This document shows, piece after piece, positions 1 through 16,855 of a stretch of DNA of 64,000 nucleotides (positions are counted from its first letter, which is position 1; every line of letters starts with the position of its first letter). Origin of the DNA: Promethearchaeota archaeon (GTDB taxonomy: Archaea; Asgardarchaeota; Lokiarchaeia; Sigyniarchaeales; SOKP01). The stretch covers positions 1 to 64,000 of the forward strand of contig JAEOTA010000078.1 in the NCBI GenBank assembly GCA_016840085.1, given 5' to 3'. A program made the position numbers and the translations under genes. The notes beneath the pieces are model-generated. The model was not told the origin of the DNA, ran no database searches, and worked only from the letters and a program-made list of their open reading frames with translations.

Positions 1-2
1 TA

Positions 3-950: not shown

Positions 951-973
951 TAATACAATTAAATTAAAAATTA

Positions 974-995
974 TTTTTTTTTTTAATCTCTTTTT
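974..995 (+). terminator. Oligo-T archaeal terminator-like tract
   Basis: Long T run plus further T tracts just after the 950 stop, between convergent genes. Confidence 0.45.
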
Positions 996-1128
996 AATAT
1001 AACCAAAAAAGTATTACAGATCCTTCTATCAGAATACTATAGCTTTTAGATTTTTAAGTATTATTTAGTGAAAAAAGCAAAACAATTTTCAAAAAGAAAA
1101 GTAAAAAAAAAAGTTAAAATCTGAAGAG

Positions 1129-1356: not shown

Positions 1357-1492
1357 TTATTATTCACCATTTTTTCTTTAACATTTTACCTATTTTTCCT
1401 AATTTTTAGGATGTTTTTAGTTAGAGTATAATACAATAAGATAAAATCCCTTTCAAATAGTATAGATCAACAACAAGATCTCAAAAGTTAAG

Positions 1493-2188: not shown

Positions 2189-2422
2189 ATTTATTAAACT
2201 AGTCGTTCTATGGATTATTAAATCAAAAAAGTAATATAAATATTCTTTATATAAAATAAGTTGTAGAGATTTATGGTATAAATATTATATTGTTAGAACA
2301 GAATTTACATTATAATAGAATTTTCTTTTTCATCAAAAGTTATAGGTTAATATTTTAAATAATAAAATCTAGAAGATAATTATTCAGTGAAATCGTATTA
2401 ATTAAGGTGTATTAGGGTTAAG

Positions 2423-3220: not shown

Positions 3221-3406
3221 TTAAAAATTGGGTTTCTATATATTTTTGGTTAATCTACTTACTTTACTTCACACTTCATTCGTTTTTTTTGGGAATAAGA
3301 TTTAAAATCTTATTAAAAATAGTTTTAAATAGTTTATTATTTAAATTCTTATCATAGTAATTTTGAATTTTGTAAATATAATATTAAAATTTATGAGCTG
3401 ATAAGT

Positions 3407-4372
3407 TTGGAAGATTATGCAATAATTCATAATCCTGCTGCTGGTAAAGGAAAAAAAGAAAAGAAGGATATTGAATTTATGAAAAAATGTTTAGGTGAGT
3501 TAAATGTTTCATATAAATTATTTGAAACTGAATATGTGAGACATGCTATAGAACTAGGAAGTAACTTAGTAAAAGATGGGTATAGAGTGATTGGAGCAGG
3601 AGGTGATGGTACTTGCAATGAAGTGATGAATGGAGCAATAACTTCTAATACTGGAGCTTTGTGTGGGTTTATTCCTATGGGTTCTGGAAATGATATTCCA
3701 GCCGCGATTGGTATCCTTCCAGATATAAAGAGAGCTTGTGAGATTATTGCGGAAGGTAAATCAGGTAAATCTGATATTGGATTTGCAAAAACAGATACTG
3801 GAATTCAGCGTTATTTTTTAGGTATTGGGAGTCAGGGTTTTGATAGTGACGTTACAAGGAGATTCAATGAAGCTAAAAGGGGAAAAAGTTATGTTACTCA
3901 AACTCTTAAGGCTTTATTGCCTTGGAAGAATAAGCAAATTAAGGTTACAATGGATAATGACGTTTATGAAGGATATGCTAACTGCTTAGCCTGTGCAAAT
4001 GGCCCTAGTTATGGTGGTTTTATGTATATTTGTCAAAAAGCTCGAGTAGATGATGGTTTTTTTCATGTAAATATAGTTGATATTGGCAAATTCAAATTAC
4101 TTAGGCATTTTAATAGGATGTATAAAGCAACTCTTTTACCTCATCCAAATATCTATGAATATACCAGTAAGAAAGTAAGGGTTGAAATGTTAAATTCTGA
4201 AGAACCTAATCCATACATTTCTCAAGTAGATGGGGAGATTTTAGATCAGGTACCTGTTAATTATGAATGTATTAAAGATGGATTTGAATTTATTCGACCA
4301 GAAATAGATGAAGTAGCAGAAGCATTTAAAAAGGAACATGGAAGATACTTTTGGGAATGCAATTATGATTAA
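3407..4372 (+). CDS. Diacylglycerol/lipid kinase family protein (DagK/YegS-like)
   Basis: NPAAG, GGDGT, PMGSGND, NGPSYGG, QVDGE motifs. Confidence 0.92.
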   Translation: MEDYAIIHNPAAGKGKKEKKDIEFMKKCLGELNVSYKLFETEYVRHAIELGSNLVKDGYRVIGAGGDGTCNEVMNGAITSNTGALCGFIPMGSGNDIPAAIGILPDIKRACEIIAEGKSGKSDIGFAKTDTGIQRYFLGIGSQGFDSDVTRRFNEAKRGKSYVTQTLKALLPWKNKQIKVTMDNDVYEGYANCLACANGPSYGGFMYICQKARVDDGFFHVNIVDIGKFKLLRHFNRMYKATLLPHPNIYEYTSKKVRVEMLNSEEPNPYISQVDGEILDQVPVNYECIKDGFEFIRPEIDEVAEAFKKEHGRYFWECNYD

Positions 4373-4400
4373 TGCCTTTTTTTAGAGTCTGATATTTCAT

Positions 4401-5024
4401 ATGCCAGATTGGGATGAGATTTTTTCTAAACAGGGAAAAATATTTCATGATCCTCATCCAGATATGGAAAAGATATCTGAGTTATTTAAAGAAAAAGGAG
4501 TAAAACGAGTTTTAGATCTTGGATGTGGAACAGGCCGTCACCTAATATTTTTATCAAAGAAAGGATTTGAAGTATATGGCATGGATGCTTCTCCTAAAGC
4601 TTTAGTGATGGCAAAAGAATGGCTCATTGAACAAAATGAAAAAGCAGAATTACATCTGAATAAAATGGAACATAAATTTCCATATAATGATAATTGTTTT
4701 GATGCTATTATTTCAATTCAAGTAATTCATCATAATCTAATAAAAGATATAATTTTTACAGTAAAGGAGATTGAGAGAATTTTAAAGTCTAGTGGCTTAA
4801 TATTCATTACATTCCCTAGATTAGGCGGAGGCTCTCGAGGAGATAATTGGGAATTGAAAGAAATTGAACCGCGAACCTACATTCCACAATCAGGAAAAGA
4901 AAAAGGATTACCTCATCATTTTTTTACTTTGGAAGAAATTAATCAAGTGTTTAATTCATTTGATCTATTAGAGATTTATATTGATGGAACAAATCATAGA
5001 GCTATTATAGGAACCAAAAAATAG
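4401..5024 (+). CDS. Class I SAM-dependent methyltransferase
   Basis: VLDLGCGTGRH motif I, FDAIIS, RILKSSG. Confidence 0.9.
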   Translation: MPDWDEIFSKQGKIFHDPHPDMEKISELFKEKGVKRVLDLGCGTGRHLIFLSKKGFEVYGMDASPKALVMAKEWLIEQNEKAELHLNKMEHKFPYNDNCFDAIISIQVIHHNLIKDIIFTVKEIERILKSSGLIFITFPRLGGGSRGDNWELKEIEPRTYIPQSGKEKGLPHHFFTLEEINQVFNSFDLLEIYIDGTNHRAIIGTKK

Positions 5025-5326
5025 ATTTATTTTATTCATCATTTCAAGTACTTCTTTTAATAAAACTTGTTAGGATTACTATTACTCTTAAAATGGCTAT
5101 TAAAATTAAAAATCTATTATAATAAGATAATAGTATTGTTTATGGATCAAATACCTGTAAAAAATGGATCATTCTTATACAAAAAATGGACAACTTTATA
5201 TACTTCCTTGGAATAGTAATTAATTGAATTTCATCTGATAACCTTCGAATGGTATAATAAAGAAAAGGTACGAAGGATTTCGATTTATTTGCTAAATATT
5301 TTAAAATATTGAATGGGGAATGTAAA

Positions 5327-5638
5327 ATGATCATAATTGAACTTCTAGTGTCATTGTTTATCGTATATCTTGTTGTATTAATAATTTATTTACTAGGAAG
5401 TAAAAAAAGAAAATATGGAGACACGTATCATTGTGGAGAAAGATTAATAGAAAATAAGGTGAAATATAAAGTCCCATGGATCTATTTTGCCAGTCTTTTT
5501 ATCGCATTTGATGCTGCAATAGTTCTAATTGCAATTACTTCTCTTTCGCTAAATATAGTAACTATAATTTTCTTAGTTTTGATCACACTCTCTTTATTCT
5601 TTATTCCCAAAGAAAAAGAGGGTAAGAATGATGATTAA
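5327..5638 (+). CDS. nuoA: Complex I-like subunit A (NuoA-like)
   Basis: 3 TM, YHCGE loop, FIAFD motif; first gene of the operon. Confidence 0.75.
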   Translation: MIIIELLVSLFIVYLVVLIIYLLGSKKRKYGDTYHCGERLIENKVKYKVPWIYFASLFIAFDAAIVLIAITSLSLNIVTIIFLVLITLSLFFIPKEKEGKNDD

Positions 5639-6602
5639 AATCGCGATGATATTGATATGGGTTCTTTTATCGTTTATTTTCGCCCTTTTTTATGAGTGGT
5701 TTGATAGGAAGGTATATGCACATTTTCAAAATAGAGTAGGACCTCAAATGGCTGGTTACAAAGGAATATTGCAACCTTTAGCAGACTTCATTAAATTATT
5801 AAAGAAGGAGAGCATATTTCCAAAAGGAAGTAATACTTTTTTGATAACCTTCTCTGCAATATCATCAGTTGCACTGATGTTTTTTATGTTACTTTTTATT
5901 CCCCTTTATAATTTAAATGCACCACTTTCGCTTAGTGGAGATTTAATTTTATTATTCGGAATTGGTGTGCTCATAGATCTTTTAATTATAATAACTGGTT
6001 ATTCCGTTGCGTGTCCATATTCAAATGAAGGTGCAGCAAGAAAGGCAGAAATGATAATTTCCTTCGAAATTCCCTTCGGGATCTCAATTGCAACCATTAT
6101 TGCTATATCTAAATCCATTACTATAAAAGACAGCTTGCTATTTCAATCATTGGGTATTCCTCTTATAATATTCATGCCTTTAAGTTTTATTGCATATATC
6201 TTTAGCAGCATAGCAAAGCTAGAAAAAGTCCCATTTGATGCTCCAAATGCGGAGTCAGAAATCGTAGCAGGATGGTCAACAGAAATCAGTGGGAGAACAT
6301 TAGCCTTATTCAGACTTTCTTTCGATCTTGATATGTTTTTTGTGGCTTCTTTTGGAGCTATCCTTTTCTTAGGTGGTCCAGCATTACCTTATTTTAATTA
6401 TCCCGGGTTATTATTTCTTAATCAGACTTTAAACTTTGTAATGTTCTTTATAAAAACATCATTAATTGTCTTTTTAATAACGATGATAAGAAGCATTACT
6501 GCAAGATATCGAATTGACCAAGTAATTAACTATTTCTGGAAAGTTATTATTCCTTTAGCAATGTTAAATTTAATTATAATCATTATATTTGGTTTGGGGT
6601 GA
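5628..6602 (+). CDS. nuoH: Complex I-like subunit H (NuoH/MbhM-like)
   Basis: DRKVYAHFQNRVGP, QPLADFIKLLKKE, PFDAPNAESEIVAG, RYRIDQ. Confidence 0.92.
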   Translation: MMIKIAMILIWVLLSFIFALFYEWFDRKVYAHFQNRVGPQMAGYKGILQPLADFIKLLKKESIFPKGSNTFLITFSAISSVALMFFMLLFIPLYNLNAPLSLSGDLILLFGIGVLIDLLIIITGYSVACPYSNEGAARKAEMIISFEIPFGISIATIIAISKSITIKDSLLFQSLGIPLIIFMPLSFIAYIFSSIAKLEKVPFDAPNAESEIVAGWSTEISGRTLALFRLSFDLDMFFVASFGAILFLGGPALPYFNYPGLLFLNQTLNFVMFFIKTSLIVFLITMIRSITARYRIDQVINYFWKVIIPLAMLNLIIIIIFGLG

Positions 6603-6608
6603 TTCAAT

Positions 6609-6863
6609 ATTAACGGTAATATTATTTATCTTTTGTTATTTATCTTAATAATAATAGTTACATTAGTAATCTATTTTGTAGAGAATTTAATGTATGCTGT
6701 TATTTTTTTTACAGTATTTAATATATTAATTGGAGTATTTTACATTTTTTTGGGCTATACTCTTTTGGGCATATTTCAGATAACATTATACTCTGTTTCG
6801 ATGGCAACTCTATTTTTTTATATAGTATGTTTAATCGGAGGGGAAAATGATAAAGAAGAGTAA
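6609..6863 (+). CDS. NuoJ N-terminal-like / MbhD-like small membrane subunit (possible ATT start at 6609, otherwise TTG 6633)
   Basis: Hydrophobic, LGIFQITLYS motif, lies between nuoH and nuoK; SD GGGGTGA 6 nt before the ATT. Confidence 0.65.
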   Translation: MNGNIIYLLLFILIIIVTLVIYFVENLMYAVIFFTVFNILIGVFYIFLGYTLLGIFQITLYSVSMATLFFYIVCLIGGENDKEE

Positions 6864-7122
6864 ATTATTGTCATTTCTACTATTGTTATTAATAGTGACA
6901 ATAAGTATTTTTTATGCTATTGAATTTGAGAATATTCAGAGCAATTATGTAGAAAATGCAGGTGAAATTTTAATACGTGAGAATGATAAAGCTTTTAATA
7001 CAGTTATAGGTAAATTTATTTGGGAATATAGAGGGTTCGAGATGATCATAATAGCCTTTATTTTACTTAGTGTCTATGCGGGTATTTCAGCACAAATTAG
7101 GAAGTCCAATACAAGGAGTTGA
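6847..7122 (+). CDS. NuoJ C-terminal-like / MbhE-like small membrane subunit
   Basis: IWEYRGFE motif between two TM helices; overlaps neighbouring genes. Confidence 0.7.
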   Translation: MIKKSKLLSFLLLLLIVTISIFYAIEFENIQSNYVENAGEILIRENDKAFNTVIGKFIWEYRGFEMIIIAFILLSVYAGISAQIRKSNTRS

Positions 7123-7445
7123 AAAAAATGATTGATATAATAGTACTAGCTTTTTCTTTAATAATAATAGAATTTTTTATAAGTTTATTACTAGCTGCTA
7201 ATAGTAAAAATGTAATCAAGATAATTATAGGTGTGGAAATTTTAATGAATACTGTAAATACATTTTTAGTCTTTTTTTCTGTATATTTTACAAACGGTAG
7301 TTTAGATCCAATTGTTGTAGTGATCGTTATGATCTCGACAATAATTGCAGCAATTGTAGCTGCGTTTATTCTTATTATTGTTTATAGGATGCAAGAAAAA
7401 TTTAATACACTTAATGCTGAAAAAATTAGTGAACTTAAGTGGTGA
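7119..7445 (+). CDS. nuoK: Complex I-like subunit K (NuoK/MrpC-like)
   Basis: NVIKIIIGVEILMN, 3 TM, C-terminal SELKW. Confidence 0.82.
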   Translation: MKKMIDIIVLAFSLIIIEFFISLLLAANSKNVIKIIIGVEILMNTVNTFLVFFSVYFTNGSLDPIVVVIVMISTIIAAIVAAFILIIVYRMQEKFNTLNAEKISELKW

Positions 7446-7448
7446 GAT

Positions 7449-9533
7449 ATGTATATAGAAGCTTGGGTAATATGGTTGATTCCATTAATTGGTTCCTTTA
7501 TAGCTTATGGGATCGCCAAGAGGAAAAAGTCATATGCCGGATATTTTTCAGTAGGTATATCGATTGTGTGTTTTTTTTTATCCTTAAAAATTTTATACGA
7601 TATTTTCACATCTACTCTACCTCTACCCTACCAAGACACATTCAATTTATTTTACGGTTTTGGAGTAACTTATTTAGAATTTGGTATATTGATTGATGAG
7701 TTTAGTATATTCATAATAACTATTATTGCTTTTATTTCAATTTTGGTTTTTTTCTATAGCTTGGGATACATGCATGAAGAAATCGATTTAGGTCGATATT
7801 GGTTCTGGATGAATCTCTCATTAGGTTCTATGTTTCTTTTGGTATTATCCAATAATTTTATTGAAATGATATTATTATTTCTCATGATCAGTCTTTGTAA
7901 TTGGGGGCTAATCTCATTCTGGTATAAAAAAACAGACCCAAGTCCGGTTCCTGGTTTTGATACAGAGGGAAAATATAATAGACACTGTGGAACTAAGGCT
8001 CTAATAACTACTTTTATCGCGGGTTGCTTTATGGAGGTTGCAATTATTTTACTCAGATTCGCTACTATGAATTCTTTTGCTCAACCTACTTTTAATTTTT
8101 TGGCGCTAAGTGAAAATAATTTTTGGGTAATTGAACTTCTAAATGCTGGACTTCTTCCTCTATTCTCAATATTGATGATTTCCAGCCTTCTCGCAAAAAG
8201 TGCTCAATTCCCATTTCATGATTGGCTTCCTGAGTCGACAGCGGGACCTATAACAACTTCCACATTAATACATTCCGTGACTACAATAAATATAGGAGTC
8301 TATATACTTGGCAGGTTCTTCTTAATAAATTTTAACCTCTATTCTTTATCGGGTGCTTCTGAGTTCTCATTACTCTTTGAAATTGCGATGATATGCGGAC
8401 TAATAACTATTATATTGACTAGTTTTTATGGAATAGTAGAGAGGGATCTAAAGCGAATTCTTGCTTTTTCAACTTCGAATCAGATGGGATACATATTCTT
8501 TATATTCGGTGTTGCCGGTCTCTATCTTAATTATTCAGCATTTGTTGCAGGTGTTCTTTATATCCTCGCACATAGCATATTCAAATCGCTTCTCTTTTTA
8601 AGTTCTGGTTTAATAATACGCTCAACAGGTATAAAAAATGTCTATGAAATGGGCTCCCTTAGAAAATATATGAAAAAGACTTATATCTTAATGATGATAG
8701 GAACATTTTCAATGGTTGGAATCCCTCCATTGGTGGGATATCTTAGCATTCAACTCTTAATTAGCGAGATATTTGTTCTCCCCCCATGGATAACTGTTCT
8801 ATTTATCGGAACATTTTTCCTAACTAATCTATATATATTTAGAATGATTGGGCTAATTTTTTTTGGTACAGAGAGCGAGAAAATCAAAAAAATCGAGATA
8901 ATGGAAAAAACACATAAGAATACCGCTATGATGACAGTTCCTCTGATTATTTTAGCTATATTGTCCATTATACTAGTCTTTTTTTACCCTACTATTATTA
9001 ATTTTATATCCGGAAGTATTCTACTGGATATTTCATTTAATAAATTGTTTTATTTCCTTTCCAACACATTATTATCTATTGGCACTTATATAATTGTTGC
9101 ATTAATTATAGTGGGCTTTATAATAACCTATCCTTTCTATTTCACAAGAAAAATCTCTCCTCATGCTATAACATCGAAATATATCATAAGAGATATACAC
9201 AAAATATTAAAGAAGCGAGTGGTCTTTAATCCTCTTTATTATTCATTTCACCGAGGGATTAACAAATTAGGAAATGCTATGAAAAACTTTCATCTATCAC
9301 TTGATAAGCTTTATCATAGTATTGGTCAAGGGATTAACAAATTAGGAAATGCTATGAAAAACTTTCATCTATCGCTTGATAAATTTTATTACAGGCTAGC
9401 ATATAGTGTTAGAAGGAGTGGTGATAGTATAAGAAAATTCCACACTGGAAAGATAAATTTAAATTTGCTTTATTATATTATCAGCATACTTTTTTCCCTT
9501 ATTATTATATATGTGTTGGTGAGGTTGAGTTAA
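7449..9533 (+). CDS. nuoL: Antiporter-like subunit L (NuoL/MrpA-like), divergent
   Basis: YSLGYM, KSAQFPFHDWLP, DLKRILAFST, HSIFKSLLFL, C-terminal lateral helix ending HTGKINLNL. Confidence 0.9.
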   Translation: MYIEAWVIWLIPLIGSFIAYGIAKRKKSYAGYFSVGISIVCFFLSLKILYDIFTSTLPLPYQDTFNLFYGFGVTYLEFGILIDEFSIFIITIIAFISILVFFYSLGYMHEEIDLGRYWFWMNLSLGSMFLLVLSNNFIEMILLFLMISLCNWGLISFWYKKTDPSPVPGFDTEGKYNRHCGTKALITTFIAGCFMEVAIILLRFATMNSFAQPTFNFLALSENNFWVIELLNAGLLPLFSILMISSLLAKSAQFPFHDWLPESTAGPITTSTLIHSVTTINIGVYILGRFFLINFNLYSLSGASEFSLLFEIAMICGLITIILTSFYGIVERDLKRILAFSTSNQMGYIFFIFGVAGLYLNYSAFVAGVLYILAHSIFKSLLFLSSGLIIRSTGIKNVYEMGSLRKYMKKTYILMMIGTFSMVGIPPLVGYLSIQLLISEIFVLPPWITVLFIGTFFLTNLYIFRMIGLIFFGTESEKIKKIEIMEKTHKNTAMMTVPLIILAILSIILVFFYPTIINFISGSILLDISFNKLFYFLSNTLLSIGTYIIVALIIVGFIITYPFYFTRKISPHAITSKYIIRDIHKILKKRVVFNPLYYSFHRGINKLGNAMKNFHLSLDKLYHSIGQGINKLGNAMKNFHLSLDKFYYRLAYSVRRSGDSIRKFHTGKINLNLLYYIISILFSLIIIYVLVRLS
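9254..9382 (+). repeat. In-frame tandem duplication in nuoL (54-nt core, 75-nt period)
   Basis: 9254-9307 and 9329-9382 match at 53/54 nt; encodes GINKLGNAMKNFHLSLDK twice. Confidence 0.95.
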
Positions 9534-9534
9534 T

Positions 9535-11043
9535 ATGTCAGAATTAGTATTTTTAATAAGTAAGTATCTACTTCCCGTAATTATACCACTAATTACAGCT
9601 ATTATAGTTTTAATAACCGGAAAGTGTCGAAAAAGTAAAGGGATATTAGGAGCTATCAGCACAGTTGGTTTGTTTTTGGTTGTGCCCTTTTCCTTATTTA
9701 ATTTTATTGAGTCAATACACACTCCAATTCTTCTCGATTTTCATATTGGTGGAACAATCTTCGTAATTGATAGTCTTTCTGCATTAATATCGCTTATTTC
9801 CTCTATTCTTGGGACAATAATATCTCTTTACAGCATTGGTTACTTAGAGGAAGAACGAAAAACAGAATATTTTTTTCTCCTTTTATTAATGATTTCAGCC
9901 CTAAATGGTGTAGCATATTCGGGTGATCTCATAACCCTTTTTGTGTTTACTGAATTTCTCGCAATTACTGCTTATATTCTAGTTGCTTTTTACAGAAATA
10001 AGGAATCTATTGAAGCGTCATTTAAGTACATCATAATGGGCTCAATTGGGGCGGCTTTAGTGTTGTTTGCACTATCATACGTCTACATCCTCGCAGGCAC
10101 TACTAATTTAACAGAATTAAATGGTGCATTAGATGATCAACCCCTTGCTACTTATTATTTCCTTTTTATCATGTTCGTGCTTGGATTTGGTGTGAAGTCA
10201 GCAATCTTTCCACTCCACACATGGTTGCCAGACGCACATTCAGCAGCTCCATCTGGAGTAAGTGCGATGCTTTCGGGAATTGTTATTGAAATAGAAATGT
10301 TCGCATTAATAAAAGTTTTGGTATCTATCTTTTATAAAGATACTTTTTTACCTTTTGACAGTATAATAATGATATTTCTGCTTATAATATCTGCCTTAAC
10401 TATAACAATTCCAAATTTAACTGCGTTAGTACAAGAAGATATCAAAAGAATGCTAGCCTATTCTAGTGTCTATAATGTGGGTTTGATGATAGTAGGTATA
10501 GCGATAGGTACTCCTTTCGCACTAGCAGCAACAATATTTCATGTTCTAAATCATGAAATTTCAAAGGCGACCATGTTTATTTGTGCTGGATCATTTATTA
10601 AAGAGGGAAAAACGAGGGAAATAAGTAGTTTGGTAGGAATTGGTACTAAAATGAAAATTACAGGAATGATATTTGCCGTAGGCGCATTTTACTTAGCAGC
10701 ATTTCCACCTTTAGCCATGTTCTGGAGTAAGCTATTTTTAATACAAGCTGCAATTGGATCCTCACAATTTATTGGTTGGATGGGAATTATGATTGCAGTT
10801 TTAATCGTAGTGAATACTGTAATTTCTATAGGCTATTATTATGGCGTACTAGTAAAAAATATCGTCATTATTCCTGAAAACCAGATTTCAGAAGAAGTTC
10901 ATGATGCCTCAGAAAAAAATAAGACGTTATTAACCTCTGAGGTAATACTTTTTGCTATAATGGTACTAGTAAGCATCATGTCGATATTTATTTGGGGTAT
11001 TATTTGTGAATGTGTAAATTCTTTCTTATCTGTTTATAATTGA
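9535..11043 (+). CDS. Antiporter-like subunit (NuoN/M, MrpD/MbhH-like)
   Basis: LFVFTEF, EASFKY, KSAIFPLHTWLPDAHSAAP, DIKRMLAYSS, FWSK. Confidence 0.9.
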   Translation: MSELVFLISKYLLPVIIPLITAIIVLITGKCRKSKGILGAISTVGLFLVVPFSLFNFIESIHTPILLDFHIGGTIFVIDSLSALISLISSILGTIISLYSIGYLEEERKTEYFFLLLLMISALNGVAYSGDLITLFVFTEFLAITAYILVAFYRNKESIEASFKYIIMGSIGAALVLFALSYVYILAGTTNLTELNGALDDQPLATYYFLFIMFVLGFGVKSAIFPLHTWLPDAHSAAPSGVSAMLSGIVIEIEMFALIKVLVSIFYKDTFLPFDSIIMIFLLIISALTITIPNLTALVQEDIKRMLAYSSVYNVGLMIVGIAIGTPFALAATIFHVLNHEISKATMFICAGSFIKEGKTREISSLVGIGTKMKITGMIFAVGAFYLAAFPPLAMFWSKLFLIQAAIGSSQFIGWMGIMIAVLIVVNTVISIGYYYGVLVKNIVIIPENQISEEVHDASEKNKTLLTSEVILFAIMVLVSIMSIFIWGIICECVNSFLSVYN

Positions 11044-11057
11044 GGTATCATTTTTGT

Positions 11058-11552
11058 ATGTCTGAAGAAATTACTATTTTAAAACGACTTGAAGAGGATT
11101 CAGTAGAGTATACGAAAGATAAAAACATCCGATTTTTTAAAATCAGGAAAAAAGATTATCTCAATATTGCAAAATACCTCAAAGAACATGGGTTCCAAAG
11201 GTTATTAACTTTAAGTGCGGTGGACTGGATAAAAGATGATTCATTTGAGATATTTTTTATTTTACATACTATGAACAAGAATGTTTATATTAAAGTTTCC
11301 ACGTGCATACCAAGAAGAAAGAATGCTAAAATCGAAAGCTTATCTGGGTTATGGGCGAATGCTGCGTTGCACGAAAGAGAGGTATGGGAAATGTTCGGTA
11401 TTATCTTTGAGGGGAATAAAATGTTAAAACCATTGTTTTTAGAAAATTGGATAGGTCCACCTCCCTTTAGAAAGGATTTTGATTGGAGGAAATATGTTAA
11501 AAGGAATTTCAACATAACGGTGCCGGAGTTTAAAAGAGATGATGGAAAATGA
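11058..11552 (+). CDS. nuoC: Complex I-like subunit C (NuoC/MbhK-like)
   Basis: LSAVDW, HEREVWEMFGIIFEG, PPFRKDF; SD GAGGT before ATG 11058. Confidence 0.9.
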   Translation: MSEEITILKRLEEDSVEYTKDKNIRFFKIRKKDYLNIAKYLKEHGFQRLLTLSAVDWIKDDSFEIFFILHTMNKNVYIKVSTCIPRRKNAKIESLSGLWANAALHEREVWEMFGIIFEGNKMLKPLFLENWIGPPPFRKDFDWRKYVKRNFNITVPEFKRDDGK

Positions 11553-13549
11553 TCAAGAGGATATTTAATATATTGAAAGCAGGGGTAAAACTGTTTATAA
11601 AAAAACCAATTACATTCAAATTTCCTCCAGAGTCACCAATCTCAAAGAAATATAGGGGACGGCATATTTTTCATCCGGAAAAATGTATATCTTGCGGGAC
11701 TTGTTTTAGAATCTGTCCTAATAGAGCAATTAATATGGTAGAAAGGCAAAAAGATGGGAAAACTGTCTATTATCCAAGTATTAATTATTTAAAGTGTTGT
11801 TTTTGCGGGCTATGTCTCGATTTATGTCCTACAAAAGCTCTTGATACAACAAACTTTTACATAATACTTTCAACAAACAAAAAAGATTTAATTTTCACAC
11901 CCGAAAAGTTAGCTCAACAACCAGTATTAGAGCATTCTGAAAAGCCAAAAAGGAAGTCCATTGTAAGTTGGGCGCGTTCAAGGAGCTTGTGGGTAACAAA
12001 CTTCTTTACTGGATGTTGTTTCATAGAAGCAATACCTTGGGTCGGTAGCGGGTTTGATATGGAAAGATTTGGGATGATCGCAAAAGGGAGCCCGTTACAT
12101 TCGGATGTGCTTCTTATAGGTGGCTATGTCACATATAACACACTCAAGAGGTTAATTGGAATATACAAAAAAATGCCTCAACCTAAATTTGTGTTAGTTC
12201 TTGGAAACTGTCCAATGACAGGAGGAACATATTGGGATAGCTACAATACCATAAAAAAGATTGATGATTATATCCCGGTGGATATATGGATCGCTGGATG
12301 TCCTACTAGACCAGAATCTATAGGTATTGCTGCCTACCATGCAATACTAGCTATCGAAGGTGGATATATGCCGAGGGAAATGAAACTTAGAATGAAAAAG
12401 AAGATTCAATATAGAAATACAGATGATTTAATAGTAGAACCAATCATAAAGAAAGTTGGAACCGATGAGAGTATATTTTCTTTTGGCCCACAACATCCCG
12501 CATCAGGTAATTTTTCGATAAGATTGAGTGTTAAAGGAGAAACAGTAAATAATGCTGAATGTATTGCAGGATATCTCCACAGAGGAATTGAGAAACTCTG
12601 TGAATATAGAACATGGTATCAAAATATAATGCTTATACCACGAAGTTGTGTCCTCGATGGTGCATCATATGAAATAGGATATGTTAATACGGTAGAAAAA
12701 TTATTAGAAATTGAAATTCCAGAAAGAGCAAAGTACCTACGAGTAATTCAGGCAGAATTATCAAGGATTCAAAGTCATTTACTTAATTTAGGACTCGTAG
12801 CTTATAGTAGTGGATTTGATACAGTAGCAAGGCTTGTATGGGGGGATAGAGAAAAAATACTTTTTCTCCTTGAGGTATTGAGTGGAAACCGCATTTATCA
12901 AGTATATAATATTCCAGGAGGGGTGAGGAGTGATATCTCAGATGAATTTAAAGAAAATGCTCCAAACATAATATCATATATAAAAAATAGACTCAAAATT
13001 CTTGATGACCTCTTTATGGAAAATCTAGTTTTCAGAAAAAGAACCATCAATCTAGGGAAAATATCTCGTGATATTGCAATAGATTCTGATATTACCGGTC
13101 CTAACATTAGGGCCTCTGGTGTAAAATTTGATGTGAGAAAAGCAACTCCATATGCAGCTTACGATAAACTTCACTTTGATGTGCCAACATTTGATGACGG
13201 AGATGTATATCATAGAGTTTTAGTAAGACGAATAGAAATCGAAAAAAGCCTAAACTTAATAGAAGAAAGTATGAATAAGTTACCTAGTGGTCCTATTAAT
13301 GTGAAATTTGGACCTATGGATAAAGTTCAGAAAGGAGAAGCAATATCTTTTGTCGAAAGTGCAAGGGGAGAGCTATGTTTCCATTTGGTAAGCGATGGGG
13401 GACAAAATCCTTATAGAGTTAAAATAAGAGGGCCCACATTCGATTCCATTCTTTTTTTATTGCCCAAATTACTGAAAGCTTGTTTTCTAGCGGATGTACC
13501 ATTAATTTACTGGAGTCTGGATAATTGTCCCGCAGATCATGATAGATGA
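11549..13549 (+). CDS. Fused NuoI-NuoB-NuoD (MbsN-J-L-like) subunit
   Basis: Two CxxCxxCxxxCP ferredoxin motifs; TGCC..E / GNC / GCP small-subunit motifs; GPQHP, GYLHRGIEK, RSCVLD, ESARGE and terminal DNCPADHDR in one uninterrupted frame. Confidence 0.92.
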   Translation: MIKRIFNILKAGVKLFIKKPITFKFPPESPISKKYRGRHIFHPEKCISCGTCFRICPNRAINMVERQKDGKTVYYPSINYLKCCFCGLCLDLCPTKALDTTNFYIILSTNKKDLIFTPEKLAQQPVLEHSEKPKRKSIVSWARSRSLWVTNFFTGCCFIEAIPWVGSGFDMERFGMIAKGSPLHSDVLLIGGYVTYNTLKRLIGIYKKMPQPKFVLVLGNCPMTGGTYWDSYNTIKKIDDYIPVDIWIAGCPTRPESIGIAAYHAILAIEGGYMPREMKLRMKKKIQYRNTDDLIVEPIIKKVGTDESIFSFGPQHPASGNFSIRLSVKGETVNNAECIAGYLHRGIEKLCEYRTWYQNIMLIPRSCVLDGASYEIGYVNTVEKLLEIEIPERAKYLRVIQAELSRIQSHLLNLGLVAYSSGFDTVARLVWGDREKILFLLEVLSGNRIYQVYNIPGGVRSDISDEFKENAPNIISYIKNRLKILDDLFMENLVFRKRTINLGKISRDIAIDSDITGPNIRASGVKFDVRKATPYAAYDKLHFDVPTFDDGDVYHRVLVRRIEIEKSLNLIEESMNKLPSGPINVKFGPMDKVQKGEAISFVESARGELCFHLVSDGGQNPYRVKIRGPTFDSILFLLPKLLKACFLADVPLIYWSLDNCPADHDR

Positions 13550-14694
13550 GTCTCTTCATTATAAGTATCTTTTCGTTTGAAATATATAACAGCTATAACT
13601 ACTCCACAAATAGATAATATACCTATAAGAAAAATAACTAATTCTAAATTCAGGATGTTTATATTCTCATGCCAGGGGTAATTTCCTTTATATGTATTTG
13701 CAGTGTTATTCAAGTAATTATTATAGATAAATTGTTCCACAGTTTTACCAGTTATTTCAAGACTGACATTCGAAATATGAGTGAGATTATCTTGGGTAGT
13801 ATGATGATAAGGCCAATGTGGATTATCCCAAAAATTAATAATCAAATCTGCTGAAGGAATACCAATGTTTACAAAAGCTTGATGATCGTCCATAATCGAC
13901 GCTGTTGTCGGATTGGATGGAAATTGCTCAGTATATCCTAACCGCCTTCCAACCGCAAATAATTCATCTAATAGAGAAGAAGTAGAGTATTGCTCCTTGA
14001 TAAAACGTAAATTTTCACCTCCAACCATATCTAATAAAATCATACAATCTAAATTTTCAGTCTCAGAATTATAAAAACTATTAATTTCATCCACAAATGC
14101 TTTCGATCCTTCACACCACCCCCAATTATCAATCCCGTAAGCATTATCTCTACCTTGATCCTCTGCGTCAAAAAATAAAAACCATACCTGGCATGACAGA
14201 TTTATTCTTCTTTGATAAAACACTCTAGCAAGTTCAATCAAGACAGCACATCCACTAGCACCATCGTTGGCACCAGGTACAGGATATGATCTATTTAAAG
14301 GGTTAGGATCCTTCGTCGCTTTAGCACGTGAATCATAATGAGCCCCTAAAATTATTATATTGCCATAATTTTGATTTAATTTGAATAAAACGTTTTGACA
14401 CTCAGTTGAGTGAGTAGTAAAATTATGGAGAATGTAAGTAAAATTACTTTCAATTTCTTGAAATTTCGAAATGAAATAGATAGCACAATTTTTTCTCTCT
14501 TCTGTTCCTGGGATTCGATAACCGATATCTAATTGATCTCGTATATATTCATAAGCATTATCACCATTAACATGTAATTCTACGTCAATATTTTGAATTT
14601 CTAGTTTATCTATAGTAAAAAAGGATATGTAAATAGAGAATAATCCTAACACAATGATGATTACGGGTATTATAACCTTTGTATATTTCTTAAT
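13537..14694 (-). CDS. Membrane-anchored M28 family peptidase / glutaminyl cyclase-like (probable ATT start at 14694)
   Basis: GAHYDSR, GANDGASG, FFDAED, LLDMVG, DDH, HHT motifs; N- and C-terminal TM; 3' end overlaps the nuoIBD stop by 13 nt. Confidence 0.88.
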   Translation of the reverse strand: MKKYTKVIIPVIIIVLGLFSIYISFFTIDKLEIQNIDVELHVNGDNAYEYIRDQLDIGYRIPGTEERKNCAIYFISKFQEIESNFTYILHNFTTHSTECQNVLFKLNQNYGNIIILGAHYDSRAKATKDPNPLNRSYPVPGANDGASGCAVLIELARVFYQRRINLSCQVWFLFFDAEDQGRDNAYGIDNWGWCEGSKAFVDEINSFYNSETENLDCMILLDMVGGENLRFIKEQYSTSSLLDELFAVGRRLGYTEQFPSNPTTASIMDDHQAFVNIGIPSADLIINFWDNPHWPYHHTTQDNLTHISNVSLEITGKTVEQFIYNNYLNNTANTYKGNYPWHENINILNLELVIFLIGILSICGVVIAVIYFKRKDTYNEETHLS

Positions 14695-14801
14695 GTAAAT
14701 TCACCATAATTGTAGGAGCTTCTAAATAATCCGTTTTAAATTATTTACTCTAATATCAAAATTCTTATTATTTTTATAATATTTTATTTATAAAAAAGGG
14801 G

Positions 14802-16841
14802 ATGATTATAATGAGTAAAGAAACACGTAAGACCGAATTATCCAAATTACCTTTTATGGATAGTTCTCTTGATATAGAGAAACGAATAGAAGACTTACTA
14901 AAACGATTAAATTTATATGAAAAGTTTAAATTGTGTGCTGGAAGACGAGTGTGGTATGCGCCACCAATAAGAAGATTAGGTATTAAATCTTTTGAAATGC
15001 ACGATGGTCCTCATGGTGTTCGCGTTGATACGGAAGGTAAAATACAGTCAACTTACTTTCCCTCAACAATATGTAGAGCGGCTACGTGGAATCCAGAATT
15101 ATCTAAAGAATTTGGTTTGGCTATAGCCCAAGAAGTTCGGGATGTCGGCGCCCATATGTTACTTGCTCCGGGAATAAATATTCAAAGAACACCGATGTGT
15201 GGAAGAACATTTGAATATCAAACAGAAGACCCTTATTTGAATAAAAAATTAGCAGTTGCAGTTGTAGAAGGTGTTCAAAGTCAGAGAATTGCAGCTTGCA
15301 TAAAACATTTTATTTGTAATAATCAAGAAACAAATCGATTTACCGTAAGCTCAGAAATTAGTGAAAGAGCTCTACAAGAAATATATTATTCTGCTTTTAA
15401 GGCAGCTGTTCAAGATGCAGATGCATGGTCAATAATGAGTAGTTATAATAAGATAAATGGAATCTATGCTTCTGAACATAAACATCTCCTAAGAGAAGTA
15501 TTAATGAATAAATGGGGATTTAGAGGTTTTGTTGTTTCAGATTGGGGAGCAACGAGAGCTACAACAAGTACAGAAAGTAGCATAAACGCAGGTTTAACCT
15601 TAGAAATGCCAACTCCAAATAAATATTCGCTAACTAAAATGAAACAAGCTTTTGAAGAAGGAAAATTTACAGAGGAAGTTCTTAACGAAAATGTAAGACG
15701 ACTTCTAAGAGTAATGTTTCTGGTAGGATTATTTGATGATGAGGATTCTTTACCGCAAGGTAGTCGAAATACTTCTGAACACCAACTATTAGCTCGTAAA
15801 ATCGCTGAAGAAGGTATAGTACTATTAAAAAATGAAAGAAATATTCTCCCTCTGAATATCGAAAAACTAAAGAAAATCGCGGTAATAGGCCCAAATGCAA
15901 ACAAAAAGACATTTTTAGGAGCTGGGAGCTCTACGAATTTTCCTCCATATGAGATTAAACCAATTGATGGAATAAGAGAGAAATGTAAAGGAAGAGTTGA
16001 GATAATCGATTCACCTGTAGAAGCGGATGTAACTTTAATTTTTGCGGGACTAAAACACGAGCGGGGAATGGATGCTGAAGGAGAAGATAAAAAATCATTC
16101 AATTTACCATCTAATCAAATTGAACTTATTTCTAAAACCATTAAAGAAAATCCTAATACGATTGTAATACTTATCAATGGAAGCCCAATCTCTATGAATG
16201 AATGGATAAATAAGGTTCCTGCTGTGATAGAAGCATGGTATGGGGGAATGGAAAGTGGTAATGCAATTACTAATATACTTTTTGGTGAAATAAATCCCTC
16301 TGGAAAACTTCCTATAACATTTCCAAAGAAACTTTCAGATTCACCTGCACATGTTTCTGAACGGACCTATCCAGGTGATGAAAAAGTATTTTATGATGAA
16401 GGCATCTTTGTGGGATATCGTCATTTTGATACACGGAATATTGAGCCACTATTCCCATTTGGTCATGGGTTATCTTATACTAAATTTAGTTATGAAAACT
16501 TCAAAGTAAATAAAGAAAAAATTTCTGGAGATGAAACTATTATTGTGTCAGTCGATGTAATTAACAGTGGCGAATATTCTGGAACTGAAGTTGTCCAATT
16601 ATATATCCAAGATGTTGAGTGTAGTGTAGAAAGACCGCTCAAAGAACTTAAAGGATTTAAAAGGATTAAACTAAAACCTAATGAGAGGAAAACTATTAAA
16701 TTTGAATTAAAAAAAGAGGATCTCTCCTTCTTTGATGAAAAAAATAATTGCTGGAAAGCTGAGAAAGGTTTATTTAATATACTTATTGGTAGCTCATCAC
16801 GAGACATTAGAATACAAGGGGAGATTGAATACTTAGGGTAA
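14802..16841 (+). CDS. Glycoside hydrolase family 3 beta-glucosidase with C-terminal Fn3-like domain
   Basis: DGPHGVR, LLAPGINI, GRTFEY, KHF, VVSDW nucleophile, PFGHGLSYT. Confidence 0.95.
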   Translation: MIIMSKETRKTELSKLPFMDSSLDIEKRIEDLLKRLNLYEKFKLCAGRRVWYAPPIRRLGIKSFEMHDGPHGVRVDTEGKIQSTYFPSTICRAATWNPELSKEFGLAIAQEVRDVGAHMLLAPGINIQRTPMCGRTFEYQTEDPYLNKKLAVAVVEGVQSQRIAACIKHFICNNQETNRFTVSSEISERALQEIYYSAFKAAVQDADAWSIMSSYNKINGIYASEHKHLLREVLMNKWGFRGFVVSDWGATRATTSTESSINAGLTLEMPTPNKYSLTKMKQAFEEGKFTEEVLNENVRRLLRVMFLVGLFDDEDSLPQGSRNTSEHQLLARKIAEEGIVLLKNERNILPLNIEKLKKIAVIGPNANKKTFLGAGSSTNFPPYEIKPIDGIREKCKGRVEIIDSPVEADVTLIFAGLKHERGMDAEGEDKKSFNLPSNQIELISKTIKENPNTIVILINGSPISMNEWINKVPAVIEAWYGGMESGNAITNILFGEINPSGKLPITFPKKLSDSPAHVSERTYPGDEKVFYDEGIFVGYRHFDTRNIEPLFPFGHGLSYTKFSYENFKVNKEKISGDETIIVSVDVINSGEYSGTEVVQLYIQDVECSVERPLKELKGFKRIKLKPNERKTIKFELKKEDLSFFDEKNNCWKAEKGLFNILIGSSSRDIRIQGEIEYLG

Positions 16842-16855
16842 ATGATAATTTTAAA

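What the first reader, a model, noticed from the sequence alone, without database searches (positions are those of the whole stretch)
5327..13549. Complex-I/MBS-like respiratory operon with a triple-fused NuoI-NuoB-NuoD subunit and CxxD motifs
Gene order is A-H-J'-J''-K-L-N/M-C-[I-B-D], with no NuoEFG/FpoF input module and no hydrogenase maturation genes. The D domain has RSCVLD (12641) and terminal DNCPADHDR (13520) where group 4 [NiFe] hydrogenases have two CxxC motifs. Keeping only the first Cys of each motif is the signature of Thermococcales MBS/MBX sulfane-sulfur reductase. The B domain keeps the tandem CC of complex I, and a NuoA is present, so the architecture is hybrid. Inference: a ferredoxin-driven, NiFe-free, quinone-independent reductase (polysulfide or disulfide) with most of the electron-transfer arm on one chain, in a putative Asgard archaeon.
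Basis: partly seen in the sequence, partly recalled or inferred. Interest (0 to 1): 0.8.

Follow-up and report, generated by a model that had tools for sequence, protein, structure and literature searches.

The report
Nickel-free complex-I-like operon with fused head
A Loki-type Asgard archaeon carries an intact, mobile 8.2-kb operon that joins the membrane pump of an Asgard hydrogen-making complex to a nickel-free, quinone-site-free "head" whose three iron-sulfur subunits are fused into one protein, so it probably burns reduced ferredoxin to move ions while reducing an acceptor that is still unknown.

Summary
Nine co-oriented genes (5327-13549) encode NuoA, H, a split J, K, L, N and C, plus one 666-aa NuoI-NuoB-NuoD fusion. 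The motifs RSCVLD and DNCPADHDR lie at the stated positions.

- **The fusion is real.** About 70 protein clusters carry it, and 23 of 301 sampled Asgard genomes do.
- **D domain.** It lacks the quinone His and Tyr and two of the four NiFe cysteines. It falls in the two-Cys clade with Mbx/Mbs-type operons, apart from quinone-type NuoD and from 4-Cys hydrogenases.
- **Membrane arm.** It comes instead from the Asgard "complex-I-like group 4 hydrogenase", so the operon is a chimera.
- **Distribution.** In every other Asgard family examined (11 loci), the head is an orphan two-gene unit (C + I-B-D). Only this genome and two relatives hold the full cassette. It has identical sharp ends, sits in different flanks, and is missing from nearly all same-genus genomes.
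- **Selection.** All genes are under purifying selection, yet NuoL has lost key pump residues.

In MBS the Cys pair is dispensable and catalysis needs a three-Cys proximal cluster; here the motif is the complex-I tandem CC.

Verdict: a new variant of the Ehr/MBS kind, acceptor unknown (sulfane sulfur about 30%). The scan has noted the orphan fused head before on other DNA.

The parts
5327..5638 (+). nuoA-like (103 aa, ATG 5327; the ORF lister gives TTG 5309)
   Evidence: PF00507 at E=2e-6. The loop motif YHCGE resembles ND3/NuoA YECG. Homology to G046 and G161 starts at 5324/5325.
5628..6602 (+). nuoH-like membrane anchor (324 aa)
   Evidence: PF00146 at 1.7e-76. Best solved relative is NdhA at 136 bits, then Nqo8 at 110 and MbhM at 91; MbsM is not below 1e-20. 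It is sister (100*) to the H of an Asgard complex-I-like hydrogenase operon, L162. dN/dS is 0.13-0.16.
6633..6863 (+). nuoJ N-terminal half (76 aa, three predicted TM helices)
   Evidence: PF00499 positions 3-64 of 146, at 29.7 bits, which is below the cut-off of 33.2. Hydropathy. The same split J1/J2 occurs in L162.
6847..7122 (+). probable nuoJ C-terminal half (91 aa, two predicted TM helices)
   Evidence: No Pfam hit. Assigned by its position between J1 and K, by two predicted TM helices, and by a weak match to the equivalent ORF in L162. This assignment is inferred.
7119..7445 (+). nuoK-like (108 aa)
   Evidence: PF00420 at 4e-13. The TM2 Glu is present in GVEILMN.
7449..9533 (+). nuoL-like antiporter-type subunit (694 aa) with a lateral helix and a final TM helix; pump residues degenerate
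   Evidence: PF00361 and PF00662. Best solved relative is NdhF at 162 bits; best homologue is the L of L162 at 497 bits. The TM5 Glu is replaced by Met/Leu and the TM12 Lys by Ile, while the L subunits of Asgard hydrogenases keep both. dN/dS is 0.31-0.35. A 75-nt in-frame tandem duplication lies at 9234-9383.
9535..11043 (+). nuoN/M-like antiporter-type subunit (502 aa), pump residues intact
   Evidence: PF00361 at 8e-61. The TM5 Glu (FTEF), TM7 Lys (VKSA), TM8 His/Lys and TM12 Lys (WSK) are all present.
11040..11552 (+). nuoC-like (170 aa from TTG 11040; probably 164 aa from 11058, as in G046)
   Evidence: PF00329 at 2.7e-30. It groups with the C genes that precede orphan I-B-D genes. G046 has a stop in the first codons, which points to the later start.
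11549..11938 (+). I domain of the fusion (aa 1-130): 2x[4Fe-4S] ferredoxin-like domain, presumed ferredoxin entry point
   Evidence: Fer4 families and NuoI/FpoI NCBIfam models. Eight Cys are invariant in 62 family clusters.
11939..12394 (+). B domain (aa 131-282): proximal [4Fe-4S] cluster, ligand motifs GCC, GNCP and GCP
   Evidence: PF01058. Best solved relative is MbsJ at 148 bits, against NdhK at 122. C156, C221 and C251 are invariant; position 157 is Cys in 47 and Gly in 15 of 62 clusters.
12395..12448 (+). B-D linker (aa 283-300), predicted disordered
   Evidence: pLDDT is below 50 over residues 283-300 in the AlphaFold2 model.
12449..13549 (+). D domain (aa 301-666): NiFe-free, quinone-site-free large-subunit homologue ending ...DNCPADHDR with no cleavable extension
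   Evidence: PF00346. Sequence match to MbsL is 295 bits, against Nqo4 234 and MbhL 194. Foldseek match to 6u8y_L has TM 0.91, rmsd 2.4 A and 42% identity. The domain falls in the two-Cys clade. C367 and C660 are kept in 61 of 62 clusters; V368, D663 and H664 are invariant.

Best explanation
The region is a functional, horizontally mobile operon for a ferredoxin-oxidising, ion-translocating member of the NiFe-free 'hydrogenase-related' (Ehr/Mbx/Mbs) branch of the complex I superfamily. It was built by joining two modules.

Module 1 is the head, NuoC plus a single chain I-B-D. It carries three [4Fe-4S] clusters and a D domain that has lost nickel binding and never had the quinone His/Tyr. In other Asgard families this head exists as an orphan two-gene unit.

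Module 2 is the membrane arm, A-H-J1-J2-K-L-N. It is homologous, in the same gene order, to the arm of the Asgard complex-I-like group 4 [NiFe] hydrogenases.

Proposed mechanism (inferred):
1. Reduced ferredoxin docks on the I domain.
2. Electrons pass along the three clusters to the pocket formed by B, D and H.
3. There they reduce an acceptor that is neither H+ nor a canonically bound quinone. By homology the best single guess is sulfane sulfur or an organic polysulfide (about 30%); otherwise it is an unidentified oxidant.
4. The conserved three-loop coupling set (NuoA YHCGE loop, D beta1-beta2 loop, H TM5-6 loop) drives ion translocation through the H/J/K channel and the intact N subunit.
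5. The L subunit, whose pump residues are lost, serves mainly as the lateral-helix clamp.

Shown: gene content, fusion, motif states, phylogenetic placement of D and H, cassette boundaries, purifying selection.
Inferred: donor, acceptor, ion pumping, the role of L.
For: Anatomy:
- Gene content and the fusion.
- D-domain motif states and nearest solved chains.

Phylogeny:
- The fused clade is monophyletic at 99*. It lies inside a 95* two-Cys clade that holds D's from Mbx-type operons.
- The 4-Cys hydrogenases are a separate clade at 100* and include every Asgard complex-I-like hydrogenase D. Quinone-type NuoD is separate (FastTree; IQ-TREE LG+C20).
- MbsL is anchored in that two-Cys clade through a D from a Mbx-type operon that scores 385 bits to 6u8y_L.

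Membrane arm origin:
- The best A/H/J/K/L homologues are L162 and L163 (H 293 bits, L 497 bits), whose D's fall in the 4-Cys hydrogenase clade.
- The H tree puts the window sister to L162 at 100*.
- This type of hydrogenase arm is described in PMC11291895 and bioRxiv 10.1101/2024.07.04.601786.

Distribution:
- The head is an orphan C + I-B-D unit in the 11 loci examined, from about 8 other Asgard families.
- The cassette has identical ends at 5324/5-13550 in three genomes with different flanks, and the site is empty in G024 and many congeners.

Functionality:
- dN/dS is 0.13-0.41 for all genes, over a gapless 8.2-kb alignment.
- Coupling loops and the N pump residues are kept.

No quinone route found:
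- No MqnA/D and no NrfD match, no MenD over its cut-off, and no NuoF, in a genome 98.8% complete.
Against: - No biochemical or expression data exist.
- The proximal-cluster motif is CC (four Cys), not the three-Cys arrangement that MBS catalysis is said to need. An MBS-like chemistry is therefore not supported for this protein. However, 15 of 62 family clusters do have C-G.
- NuoL has lost the TM5 Glu and TM12 Lys, and its orthologues have also lost the TM7 Lys. This could mean weakened or altered coupling.
- Orphan heads in other Asgard genomes might be soluble enzymes, so membrane docking may be a lineage-specific novelty.
- Absence of quinone synthesis rests on three marker families only.
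- The trees are quick/FastTree searches. The careful IQ-TREE run did not finish. P. furiosus MbsL itself could not be placed in the tree because no sequence reference was available.
Confidence: 0.6

Rival explanations
1. It is a true MBS-type sulfane-sulfur (polysulfide) reductase. Ferredoxin electrons would reduce polysulfide at the head and drive ion pumping.
For: - D and B are the closest sequence and structure relatives of MbsL and MbsJ.
- The active-site relic pattern is the same, as are the shortened beta1-beta2 loop and the C-terminal DNCPxDxDR.
- D lies in the clade that holds Mbx-type operons.
- No quinone markers were found.
Against: - MBS catalysis is assigned to a proximal cluster with one non-cysteinyl Fe (MbsJ C28/C93/C123), and the MbsL Cys pair is dispensable. 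Here the motif is the complex-I CC.
- The membrane arm is not Mrp-type and MbsM is not a detectable close relative of H.
- The fused clade is sister to small B-C-D-I modules, not to the MbsL-proper subclade.
- Asgard sediment dwellers are not known S0 respirers (my own knowledge, not tested here).
Confidence: 0.3
2. It is an 11-subunit-type complex I / Fpo-like enzyme lacking an input module. It would reduce a membrane quinone or phenazine-like carrier with ferredoxin.
For: NuoA, H, J, K, L and N are all present. The B domain has the tandem CC typical of cluster N2. H and L are closest to NDH-1/complex I chains.
Against: - The Tyr87 equivalent is an invariant Val, and the His38 position is deleted.
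- D is outside the quinone-type clade.
- No MqnA/D and no NrfD match, and no MenD over its cut-off, in a 98.8%-complete genome.
- The homologous Asgard arms serve hydrogenases and, according to the preprint read, do not admit quinone.
Confidence: 0.07
3. The head is an electron-transfer adaptor for another cytoplasmic oxidoreductase, in the manner of an FDH-Ehr arrangement. Formate dehydrogenase or an Hdr/MvhD-type partner would feed or drain it. In this genome it may work in reverse, using the ion gradient to drive ferredoxin reduction.
For: - C + I-B-D lies beside FdhA + FdhB (FrhB family), with MvhD, in two Asgard families and in two different gene orders (G100/G117 and G135).
- An FDH-Ehr complex has been proposed for Margulisbacteria and Saganbacteria (PMC6349859).
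- G000 has an FdhA-like gene elsewhere.
Against: - The Fdh neighbourhood is seen in only 3 of 11 loci examined; other neighbours are unrelated.
- No such partner is in the window cassette.
- Direction of operation cannot be read from sequence.
Confidence: 0.15
4. It is a decaying, non-functional acquisition, or a mis-binned contig that does not belong to this organism.
For: - The operon is absent from nearly all same-genus genomes.
- The L subunit has lost pump residues.
- Genome contamination is estimated at 7.6%.
Against: - The flanks on both sides (24-5120 and 13662-20000) are syntenic at 84-85% nt identity with a congener, G024:C44, so the contig belongs to the genus.
- All nine frames are intact in three genomes, with dN/dS 0.13-0.41.
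Confidence: 0.04

Closest known systems
MBS (formerly MBX), membrane-bound sulfane sulfur reductase of Pyrococcus furiosus (PDB 6U8Y; Yu et al. 2020, PMC7684303)
   Same: - The D homologue keeps only the first Cys of each NiFe motif.
- It lacks the quinone His/Tyr and the hydrogenase Glu.
- It has the same loop length and the same C-terminal DNCPxDxDR.
- D and B are the best sequence and structure matches (295 and 148 bits; TM 0.91).
- The donor is ferredoxin via a NuoI-like 2x[4Fe-4S] unit.
   Different: - I, B and D are one chain here.
- The proximal-cluster motif is CC, not C-G, so a fourth Cys ligand is available.
- The membrane arm is complex-I-like (NuoA, split J, K, L with lateral helix, N). 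It is not Mrp-like with a Na+/H+ module.
- The D domain lies in a sister subclade, not with MbsL itself.
Asgard complex-I-like group 4 [NiFe] hydrogenases (Valentin-Alvarado et al. 2024, PMC11291895; groups 4j-q of Appler et al., bioRxiv 10.1101/2024.07.04.601786)
   Same: - The membrane arm is homologous and in the same order, A-H-J1-J2-K-L-N, with H 48% identical.
- L carries the HL helix.
- Only two antiporter-like subunits are present.
- There is no NuoEFG, so a ferredoxin donor is presumed.
   Different: - Their head is four separate genes (B, C, D, I), with a four-Cys NiFe large subunit and a C-terminal extension.
- The head here is C + fused I-B-D, it is NiFe-free, and it is placed 3' of the arm.
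- NuoL here has lost the TM5 Glu and TM12 Lys, which theirs keep.
Ehr, energy-converting hydrogenase-related complexes (Marreiros et al. 2013, as summarised in PMC6349859)
   Same: It has group-4-hydrogenase-like subunits without the NiFe ligands, it has antiporter-like subunits, its acceptor is unknown, and it is occasionally linked to formate dehydrogenase.
   Different: Ehr is a loose umbrella category. I found no description of an I-B-D fusion, or of an Ehr head on a NuoA-containing complex-I-type arm, in the papers I could search.
Respiratory complex I / NDH-1 / Fpo
   Same: NuoA, H, J, K, L, N and C are present, NuoB has the tandem Cys, and the three coupling loops are kept.
   Different: There is no quinone His/Tyr, no NuoM, no input module, and no quinone-synthesis markers in the genome. 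D lies outside the quinone-type clade.

Membership tests
MBS/MBX (Thermococcales sulfane sulfur reductase) | Large subunit with two of the four NiFe Cys and without Nqo4 His38/Tyr87 or MbhL Glu21 | tested here: met
   RSCVLD and DNCPADHDR align to MbsL RICVPE and DNCPPDIDR. The loop HPASGNF aligns to HMATENF.
MBS/MBX (Thermococcales sulfane sulfur reductase) | Large subunit groups with MbsL in a phylogeny | tested here: inconclusive
   The D domain is inside the 95* two-Cys clade that holds D's from Mbx-type operons. One of those scores 385 bits to 6u8y_L, against 295 for the window. The fused clade, however, is in the sister sub-branch, and MbsL itself could not be put in the tree.
MBS/MBX (Thermococcales sulfane sulfur reductase) | Proximal [4Fe-4S] cluster with only three Cys ligands (catalytic open Fe) | tested here: not met
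   The window has TGCCFIE where MbsJ has TGCGGIE. Position 157 is Cys in 47 and Gly in 15 of 62 family clusters. Actual ligation cannot be told from sequence.
MBS/MBX (Thermococcales sulfane sulfur reductase) | Mrp-derived membrane arm with a Na+/H+ module and no NuoA | tested here: not met
   NuoA is present. H and L are closest to NDH-1/complex I, and MbsM is not found below 1e-20. The H tree separates the window from the H subunits of Mbx-type operons.
MBS/MBX (Thermococcales sulfane sulfur reductase) | Polysulfide / dimethyl trisulfide reductase activity | not testable with these tools
   This needs biochemistry.
Complex I / Fpo / NDH-1 (quinone or phenazine reducing) | NuoD quinone-head ligands His38 and Tyr87 (T. 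thermophilus numbering) | tested here: not met
   The Tyr87 position is Val in all 62 family clusters, and the His38 position is deleted.
Complex I / Fpo / NDH-1 (quinone or phenazine reducing) | NuoB tandem Cys for cluster N2 | tested here: met
   GCC at residues 155-157, aligned to NdhK ACC.
Complex I / Fpo / NDH-1 (quinone or phenazine reducing) | Full membrane set A, H, J, K, L, M, N with functional antiporter-like subunits | tested here: not met
   Only two antiporter-like subunits are present. L lacks the TM5 Glu and TM12 Lys. N is intact.
Complex I / Fpo / NDH-1 (quinone or phenazine reducing) | A quinone or phenazine pool in the organism | tested here: inconclusive
   No PF02621 (MqnA/D) and no PF03916 (NrfD) match, and no MenD over its cut-off, in the 98.8%-complete genome. 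Only three markers were searched.
Group 4 [NiFe] hydrogenase (Asgard complex-I-like type) | Four Cys NiFe ligands (RxCGxC ... DPCxxC) and a cleavable C-terminal extension | tested here: not met
   The pattern is CxxD / CxxD, and the protein ends at ...HDR. The Asgard hydrogenase D's carry RICGIC/DPCFSC-type motifs with C-terminal tails (L162: only DPCIGC was read directly); all of them, L162 included, fall in a separate 100* clade.
Group 4 [NiFe] hydrogenase (Asgard complex-I-like type) | Membrane arm A-H-J1-J2-K-L(HL helix)-N | tested here: met
   Same order and best homology to L162 and L163. The HL helix and a final TM helix are seen in L.
Ehr (hydrogenase-related complexes) | Group-4-like large and small subunits lacking the NiFe ligands, combined with antiporter-like subunits | tested here: met
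   The definition is as quoted in PMC6349859.

The most novel reading that the evidence does not exclude
C + I-B-D is an exchangeable, nickel-free 'alternative head'. In most Asgard lineages it would plug into the membrane arm of the resident complex-I-like hydrogenase and switch the terminal acceptor from protons to something else.

- The window's cassette would then be a preserved example of head swapping. A lineage that has no resident arm (this is the only PF00346 locus in the genome) had to acquire head and arm together.
- 19 of 20 genomes with an orphan head also hold another D-type gene.
- In the five such genomes that I opened, at least one of these is a 4-Cys hydrogenase gene, in four of them with a full complex-I-like arm beside it.
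- The beta1-beta2 coupling loop is nearly invariant even in orphan heads.
Probability: 0.3. Interest if true: 0.8.

Novelty: new variant of a known kind. Interest (0 to 1): 0.62.

Why it matters
Complex I is thought to have arisen from membrane-bound hydrogenases by stepwise loss of the NiFe site and gain of a quinone site. MBS is the only characterised intermediate.

This operon is a natural combination of an MBS-like, NiFe-free, quinone-site-free head with a complex-I-type arm that includes NuoA and the lateral helix. It occurs in the archaeal lineage nearest to eukaryotes. It shows that heads and arms of these machines are exchanged as modules and travel as cassettes.

It also gives a compact two-gene target (C + one 666-aa chain holding all three clusters) for expression, spectroscopy and substrate screening. 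Natural CC and CG variants are available to test the 'open-iron' catalytic model proposed for MBS.

Tried and rejected
1. Placing P. furiosus MbsL, MbhL, EchE and FpoD as named rows in the D tree was not possible. The DNA pattern used by the search for related loci excluded MbsL. No Thermococcales MbsL was among the 269 proteins fetched. I anchored MbsL indirectly through PDB phmmer scores.
Neighbourhoods were therefore annotated with my own ORF calls plus phmmer against the window's subunits.
4. The careful IQ-TREE search did not finish in two 300-s runs on one CPU. The quick IQ-TREE tree and the FastTree tree agree.
5. I looked for terminal repeats or an integrase at the cassette ends and found none.
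6. Literature searches for Asgard plus Mbx returned nothing. The Thermoprofundales paper was irrelevant.
7. An assembly artefact, a mis-binned contig and a decaying operon were each considered and rejected.
8. The Pfam assignment of J2 failed. Its identity rests on position and topology only.

Full report
**1. What is there**

Nine tightly packed, co-oriented ORFs fill 5327-13549. Pfam and NCBIfam name them NuoA, NuoH, the N-terminal half of NuoJ, an unnamed 91-aa protein, NuoK, a 694-aa NuoL, a 502-aa NuoN/M, NuoC, and one 666-aa protein. The unnamed protein has two predicted TM helices and sits where the C-terminal half of NuoJ is expected.

The 666-aa protein carries three domains in order: a 2x[4Fe-4S] NuoI domain, a NuoB domain and a NuoD domain. 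Its translation has no stop. RSCVLD starts at nt 12641 and DNCPADHDR at nt 13520, exactly as reported.

The likely true start of nuoA is ATG 5327, because homology to the two orthologous cassettes begins at 5324/5325. nuoC probably starts at 11058, as in G046.

**2. The fusion is real and widespread**

- About 70 clusters at 90% identity, 640-690 aa long, show the same three-domain architecture. They are labelled Promethearchaeota, Heimdall-, Njord-, Freyr- and Odinarchaeota, Bathyarchaeota and Hecatellales.
- In 301 sampled Asgard genomes, a full-length fused gene is present in 23, from about 11 families.
- In an alignment of 62 clusters, these are invariant: all eight Cys of the I domain, three Cys of the B domain (156, 221, 251), Val368, Asp663, His664, Asp665 and Arg666.
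- Cys367 and Cys660 are kept in 61 of 62 clusters and are lost together in the one exception.
- Position 157, the second Cys of 'CC', is Cys in 47 clusters and Gly in 15.
- AlphaFold2 with this alignment gives pTM 0.90 and mean pLDDT 84, with a disordered B-D linker at residues 283-300.
- By Foldseek the D domain superposes best on MbsL (6u8y_L: TM 0.91, rmsd 2.4 A, 42% identity).

**3. What the head is related to**

| Query | Best solved relatives (phmmer bits) |
|---|---|
| D domain | MbsL of P. furiosus MBS 295; Nqo4 234; MbhL 194 |
| B domain | MbsJ 148; NdhK 122 |

In the alignments, Nqo4 Tyr87 corresponds to Val, and the His38 position is missing, as in MbsL. The C-terminus DNCPADHDR mirrors MbsL DNCPPDIDR.

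I assembled 334 D-type sequences. They came from 150 representatives at 50% identity, the family hits and 80 named genome loci. By motif they split as follows:

- 171 carry Cx[DE]/Cx[DE];
- 56 carry four Cys;
- the remainder includes the His/Tyr quinone type.

FastTree on 174 rows and IQ-TREE LG+C20+F+G4 on 97 rows agree:

- Four-Cys hydrogenases are one clade (100*).
- The fused I-B-D sequences are one clade (99*).
- That clade is nested in a 95* clade of two-Cys sequences that includes the D genes of Mbx/Mbs-type operons (K-N-N-H-B-C-D-I).
- Quinone-type NuoD is separate.
- The immediate sisters of the fused clade are small B-C-D-I modules.

A D from a Mbx-type operon in Mesoaciditoga scores 385 bits to MbsL. 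MbsL proper therefore sits in the neighbouring sub-branch.

**4. What the membrane arm is related to**

| Subunit | Best solved relatives (bits) |
|---|---|
| H | NdhA 136; Nqo8 110; MbhM 91; MbsM absent below 1e-20 |
| L | NdhF 162 |

Among all fetched loci, the best homologues of A, H, J1, J2, K and L lie in two Asgard operons, L162 and L163. L162 is ordered B-C-D-I-A-H-J1-J2-K-L-N; L163 holds the same subunits but with K, L and N apart on the opposite strand. H scores 293 bits (48% identity) and L 497 bits.

The D genes of those operons fall in the four-Cys hydrogenase clade. RICGIC and DPCFAC were read directly in L163. For L162 only the C-terminal DPCIGC was read.

In an H tree the window is sister to L162 (100*) and far from the 41 H subunits of two-Cys (Cx[DE]) D loci, mostly Mbx-type operons.

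This arm type has two antiporter-like subunits and an L with a lateral helix. It is the 'novel complex-I-like group 4 hydrogenase' of Asgard archaea described by Valentin-Alvarado et al. 2024 (PMC11291895) and by Appler et al. (bioRxiv 10.1101/2024.07.04.601786).

The window operon therefore equals that arm with the hydrogenase head (B, C, D, I) removed and C + I-B-D appended at the 3' end. It is a chimera of two modules with different histories.

**5. Distribution**

- In the 11 loci examined from other Asgard families, the head is a two-gene unit, C + I-B-D, with no membrane gene beside it.
- In the five such genomes that I opened, the complex-I-type arms belong to separate operons that have their own heads. 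At least one of those heads is a four-Cys hydrogenase. This is clear in G276, G100, G107 and G162; the G153 locus is fragmentary.
- 19 of 20 genomes with an orphan head hold another D-type gene. The three cassette genomes hold none.
- Neighbours of the orphan unit are mostly unrelated.
- In two families, however, the orphan unit lies next to FdhA + FdhB (with MvhD), in two different orders. This recalls the proposed 'FDH-Ehr' complexes (PMC6349859).
- Earlier notes of this scan also record orphan C + I-B-D units on other DNA. My data agree.

**6. The operon is an accessory cassette**

- One of 40 sampled same-genus genomes (G046) and one from a sister genus (G161) carry it.
- Homology to the window is a single gapless block, 5324/5-13550, at 89.5% nt identity. 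G046 and G161 are 97% identical to each other over 8.85 kb. The flanks differ in all three genomes.
- In G024 the window's flanks (24-5120 and 13662-16831) are adjacent, about 24 bp apart. Many congeners show the same empty site, G046 included.
- I found no terminal repeats and no integrase.
- The contig belongs to the organism, because its flanks are syntenic with congeners.

**7. Is it functional?**

Codon-wise comparison with G161 and G046 gives dN/dS of 0.13-0.41 for every gene. The lowest values are for H (0.13-0.16) and I-B-D (0.17-0.20).

These coupling elements are present:

- the NuoA YHCGE loop;
- the D loop FGPQHPASGNF;
- the H loop PFDAPNAESEIVAGWSTEISG;
- the NuoK TM2 Glu;
- all four pump residues of N.

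NuoL is unexpectedly degenerate:

- The TM5 Glu is Met/Leu and the TM12 Lys is Ile in all three copies.
- The TM7 Lys is Ile in the two orthologues.
- The L subunits of the Asgard hydrogenases keep all of these residues.
- L retains its lateral helix, here lengthened by a 25-aa tandem duplication (9234-9383), and its last TM helix.
- I infer that L is kept as a clamp rather than as a pump.

**8. Donor and acceptor**

The donor is most likely ferredoxin. The I domain is exposed, there is no NuoEFG in the operon, and there is no PF01512 match in the genome.

The acceptor:

- It is not H+, because the NiFe site is absent.
- It is not a canonically bound quinone, because the His/Tyr are absent. 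No MqnA/D and no NrfD match was found, and no MenD over its cut-off.
- The MBS precedent suggests sulfane sulfur. But Yu et al. showed that the MbsL Cys pair is dispensable, and that activity depends on a proximal cluster with one non-Cys iron.
- The window has the complex-I CC motif instead, while a quarter of the family has C-G.
- I therefore put sulfane sulfur at about 30% and leave the acceptor open.
- The paired conservation, and the single paired loss, of Cys367/Cys660 beside invariant Asp/His/Asp points to a joint structural or metal/disulfide role. That role remains untested.

**9. Classification**

- It fails membership of MBS on the cluster ligands and the Mrp-type arm.
- It fails membership of complex I on the quinone site, the missing M subunit and the missing input module.
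- It fails membership of [NiFe] hydrogenases on the ligands.
- It fits the loose Ehr category.
- I found no description of an I-B-D fusion, or of this head/arm combination, in the searchable literature. That is absence of evidence only.

Rating: a new variant of a known kind.

**10. Limits**

- There are no expression data.
- The trees come from quick searches.
- MbsL was placed indirectly.
- Neighbourhood annotation outside the window relies on my own ORF calls.

Noticed in passing
window 9234-9383: An in-frame 75-nt tandem duplication (85% identical) lies in the C-terminal lateral-helix region of nuoL and repeats a 25-aa segment (…GINKLGNAMKNFHLSLDK). It is also present in the G046 and G161 copies, judging from BLAST cross-matches. 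It would lengthen helix HL.
   Followed up: partly
L142:1-13400 (G100:C6), L143 (G117:C74), L144:1100-7400 (G135:C21): In two other Asgard families the orphan nuoC + I-B-D pair sits on the same strand next to a molybdopterin formate-dehydrogenase-like FdhA (about 680 aa) and an FrhB/FdhB-family subunit (about 415 aa), with MvhD and FmdE nearby. The two families have different gene orders, which hints at a functional link.
   Followed up: partly
L108 (G057/G276:C41, Heimdallarchaeota MAG_147): An operon with the classical complex I gene order, A-B-C-D-H-I-J-K-L-N-N, has a four-Cys D subunit (RVCGIC / DPCFSC). It is a hydrogenase rather than a quinone reductase.
   Followed up: partly
L012-L081 (many bacterial loci): In bacterial Mbx-type operons (K-N-N-H-B-C-D-I) the NuoI-like gene is about 600-760 aa long. 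The window's I domain also matches the N-terminus of NCBIfam PRK13984, 'putative oxidoreductase' (611 aa). The long I subunits probably carry an extra flavoprotein (GltD-like) module; this was not checked.
   Followed up: no
L166 (G100:C7:1-14000); also P0112, P0125, P0131, P0173, P0184: A further D-type clade (100*) has neither Cys pair nor His/Tyr; G100's copy, alone of the six rows, still keeps the first Cys. G100's copy reads RQCLPD ... SLDYWPPDADR. Its operon is B-C-D-H-I-x-K-N-N-L.
   Followed up: no
G000:C72:2684-39757, C26:19101-23001: The window's genome holds four large molybdopterin oxidoreductase genes, three of them on one contig, but no NrfD-type quinol-interacting anchor.
   Followed up: no
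window 1-5120 and 13662-20000: The flanking genes are a YegS/diacylglycerol-kinase-like protein, a class I methyltransferase, an M28 peptidase (convergent, overlapping the I-B-D stop by 13 nt) and a GH3 glycosidase. They are syntenic across the genus, with the operon site empty.
   Followed up: yes
P0038 (family cluster of 18 members): This is the only fused-family cluster that has lost both D-domain cysteines together (RINVLDG, DNAPADHDR). That fits the two Cys acting as a pair.
   Followed up: no
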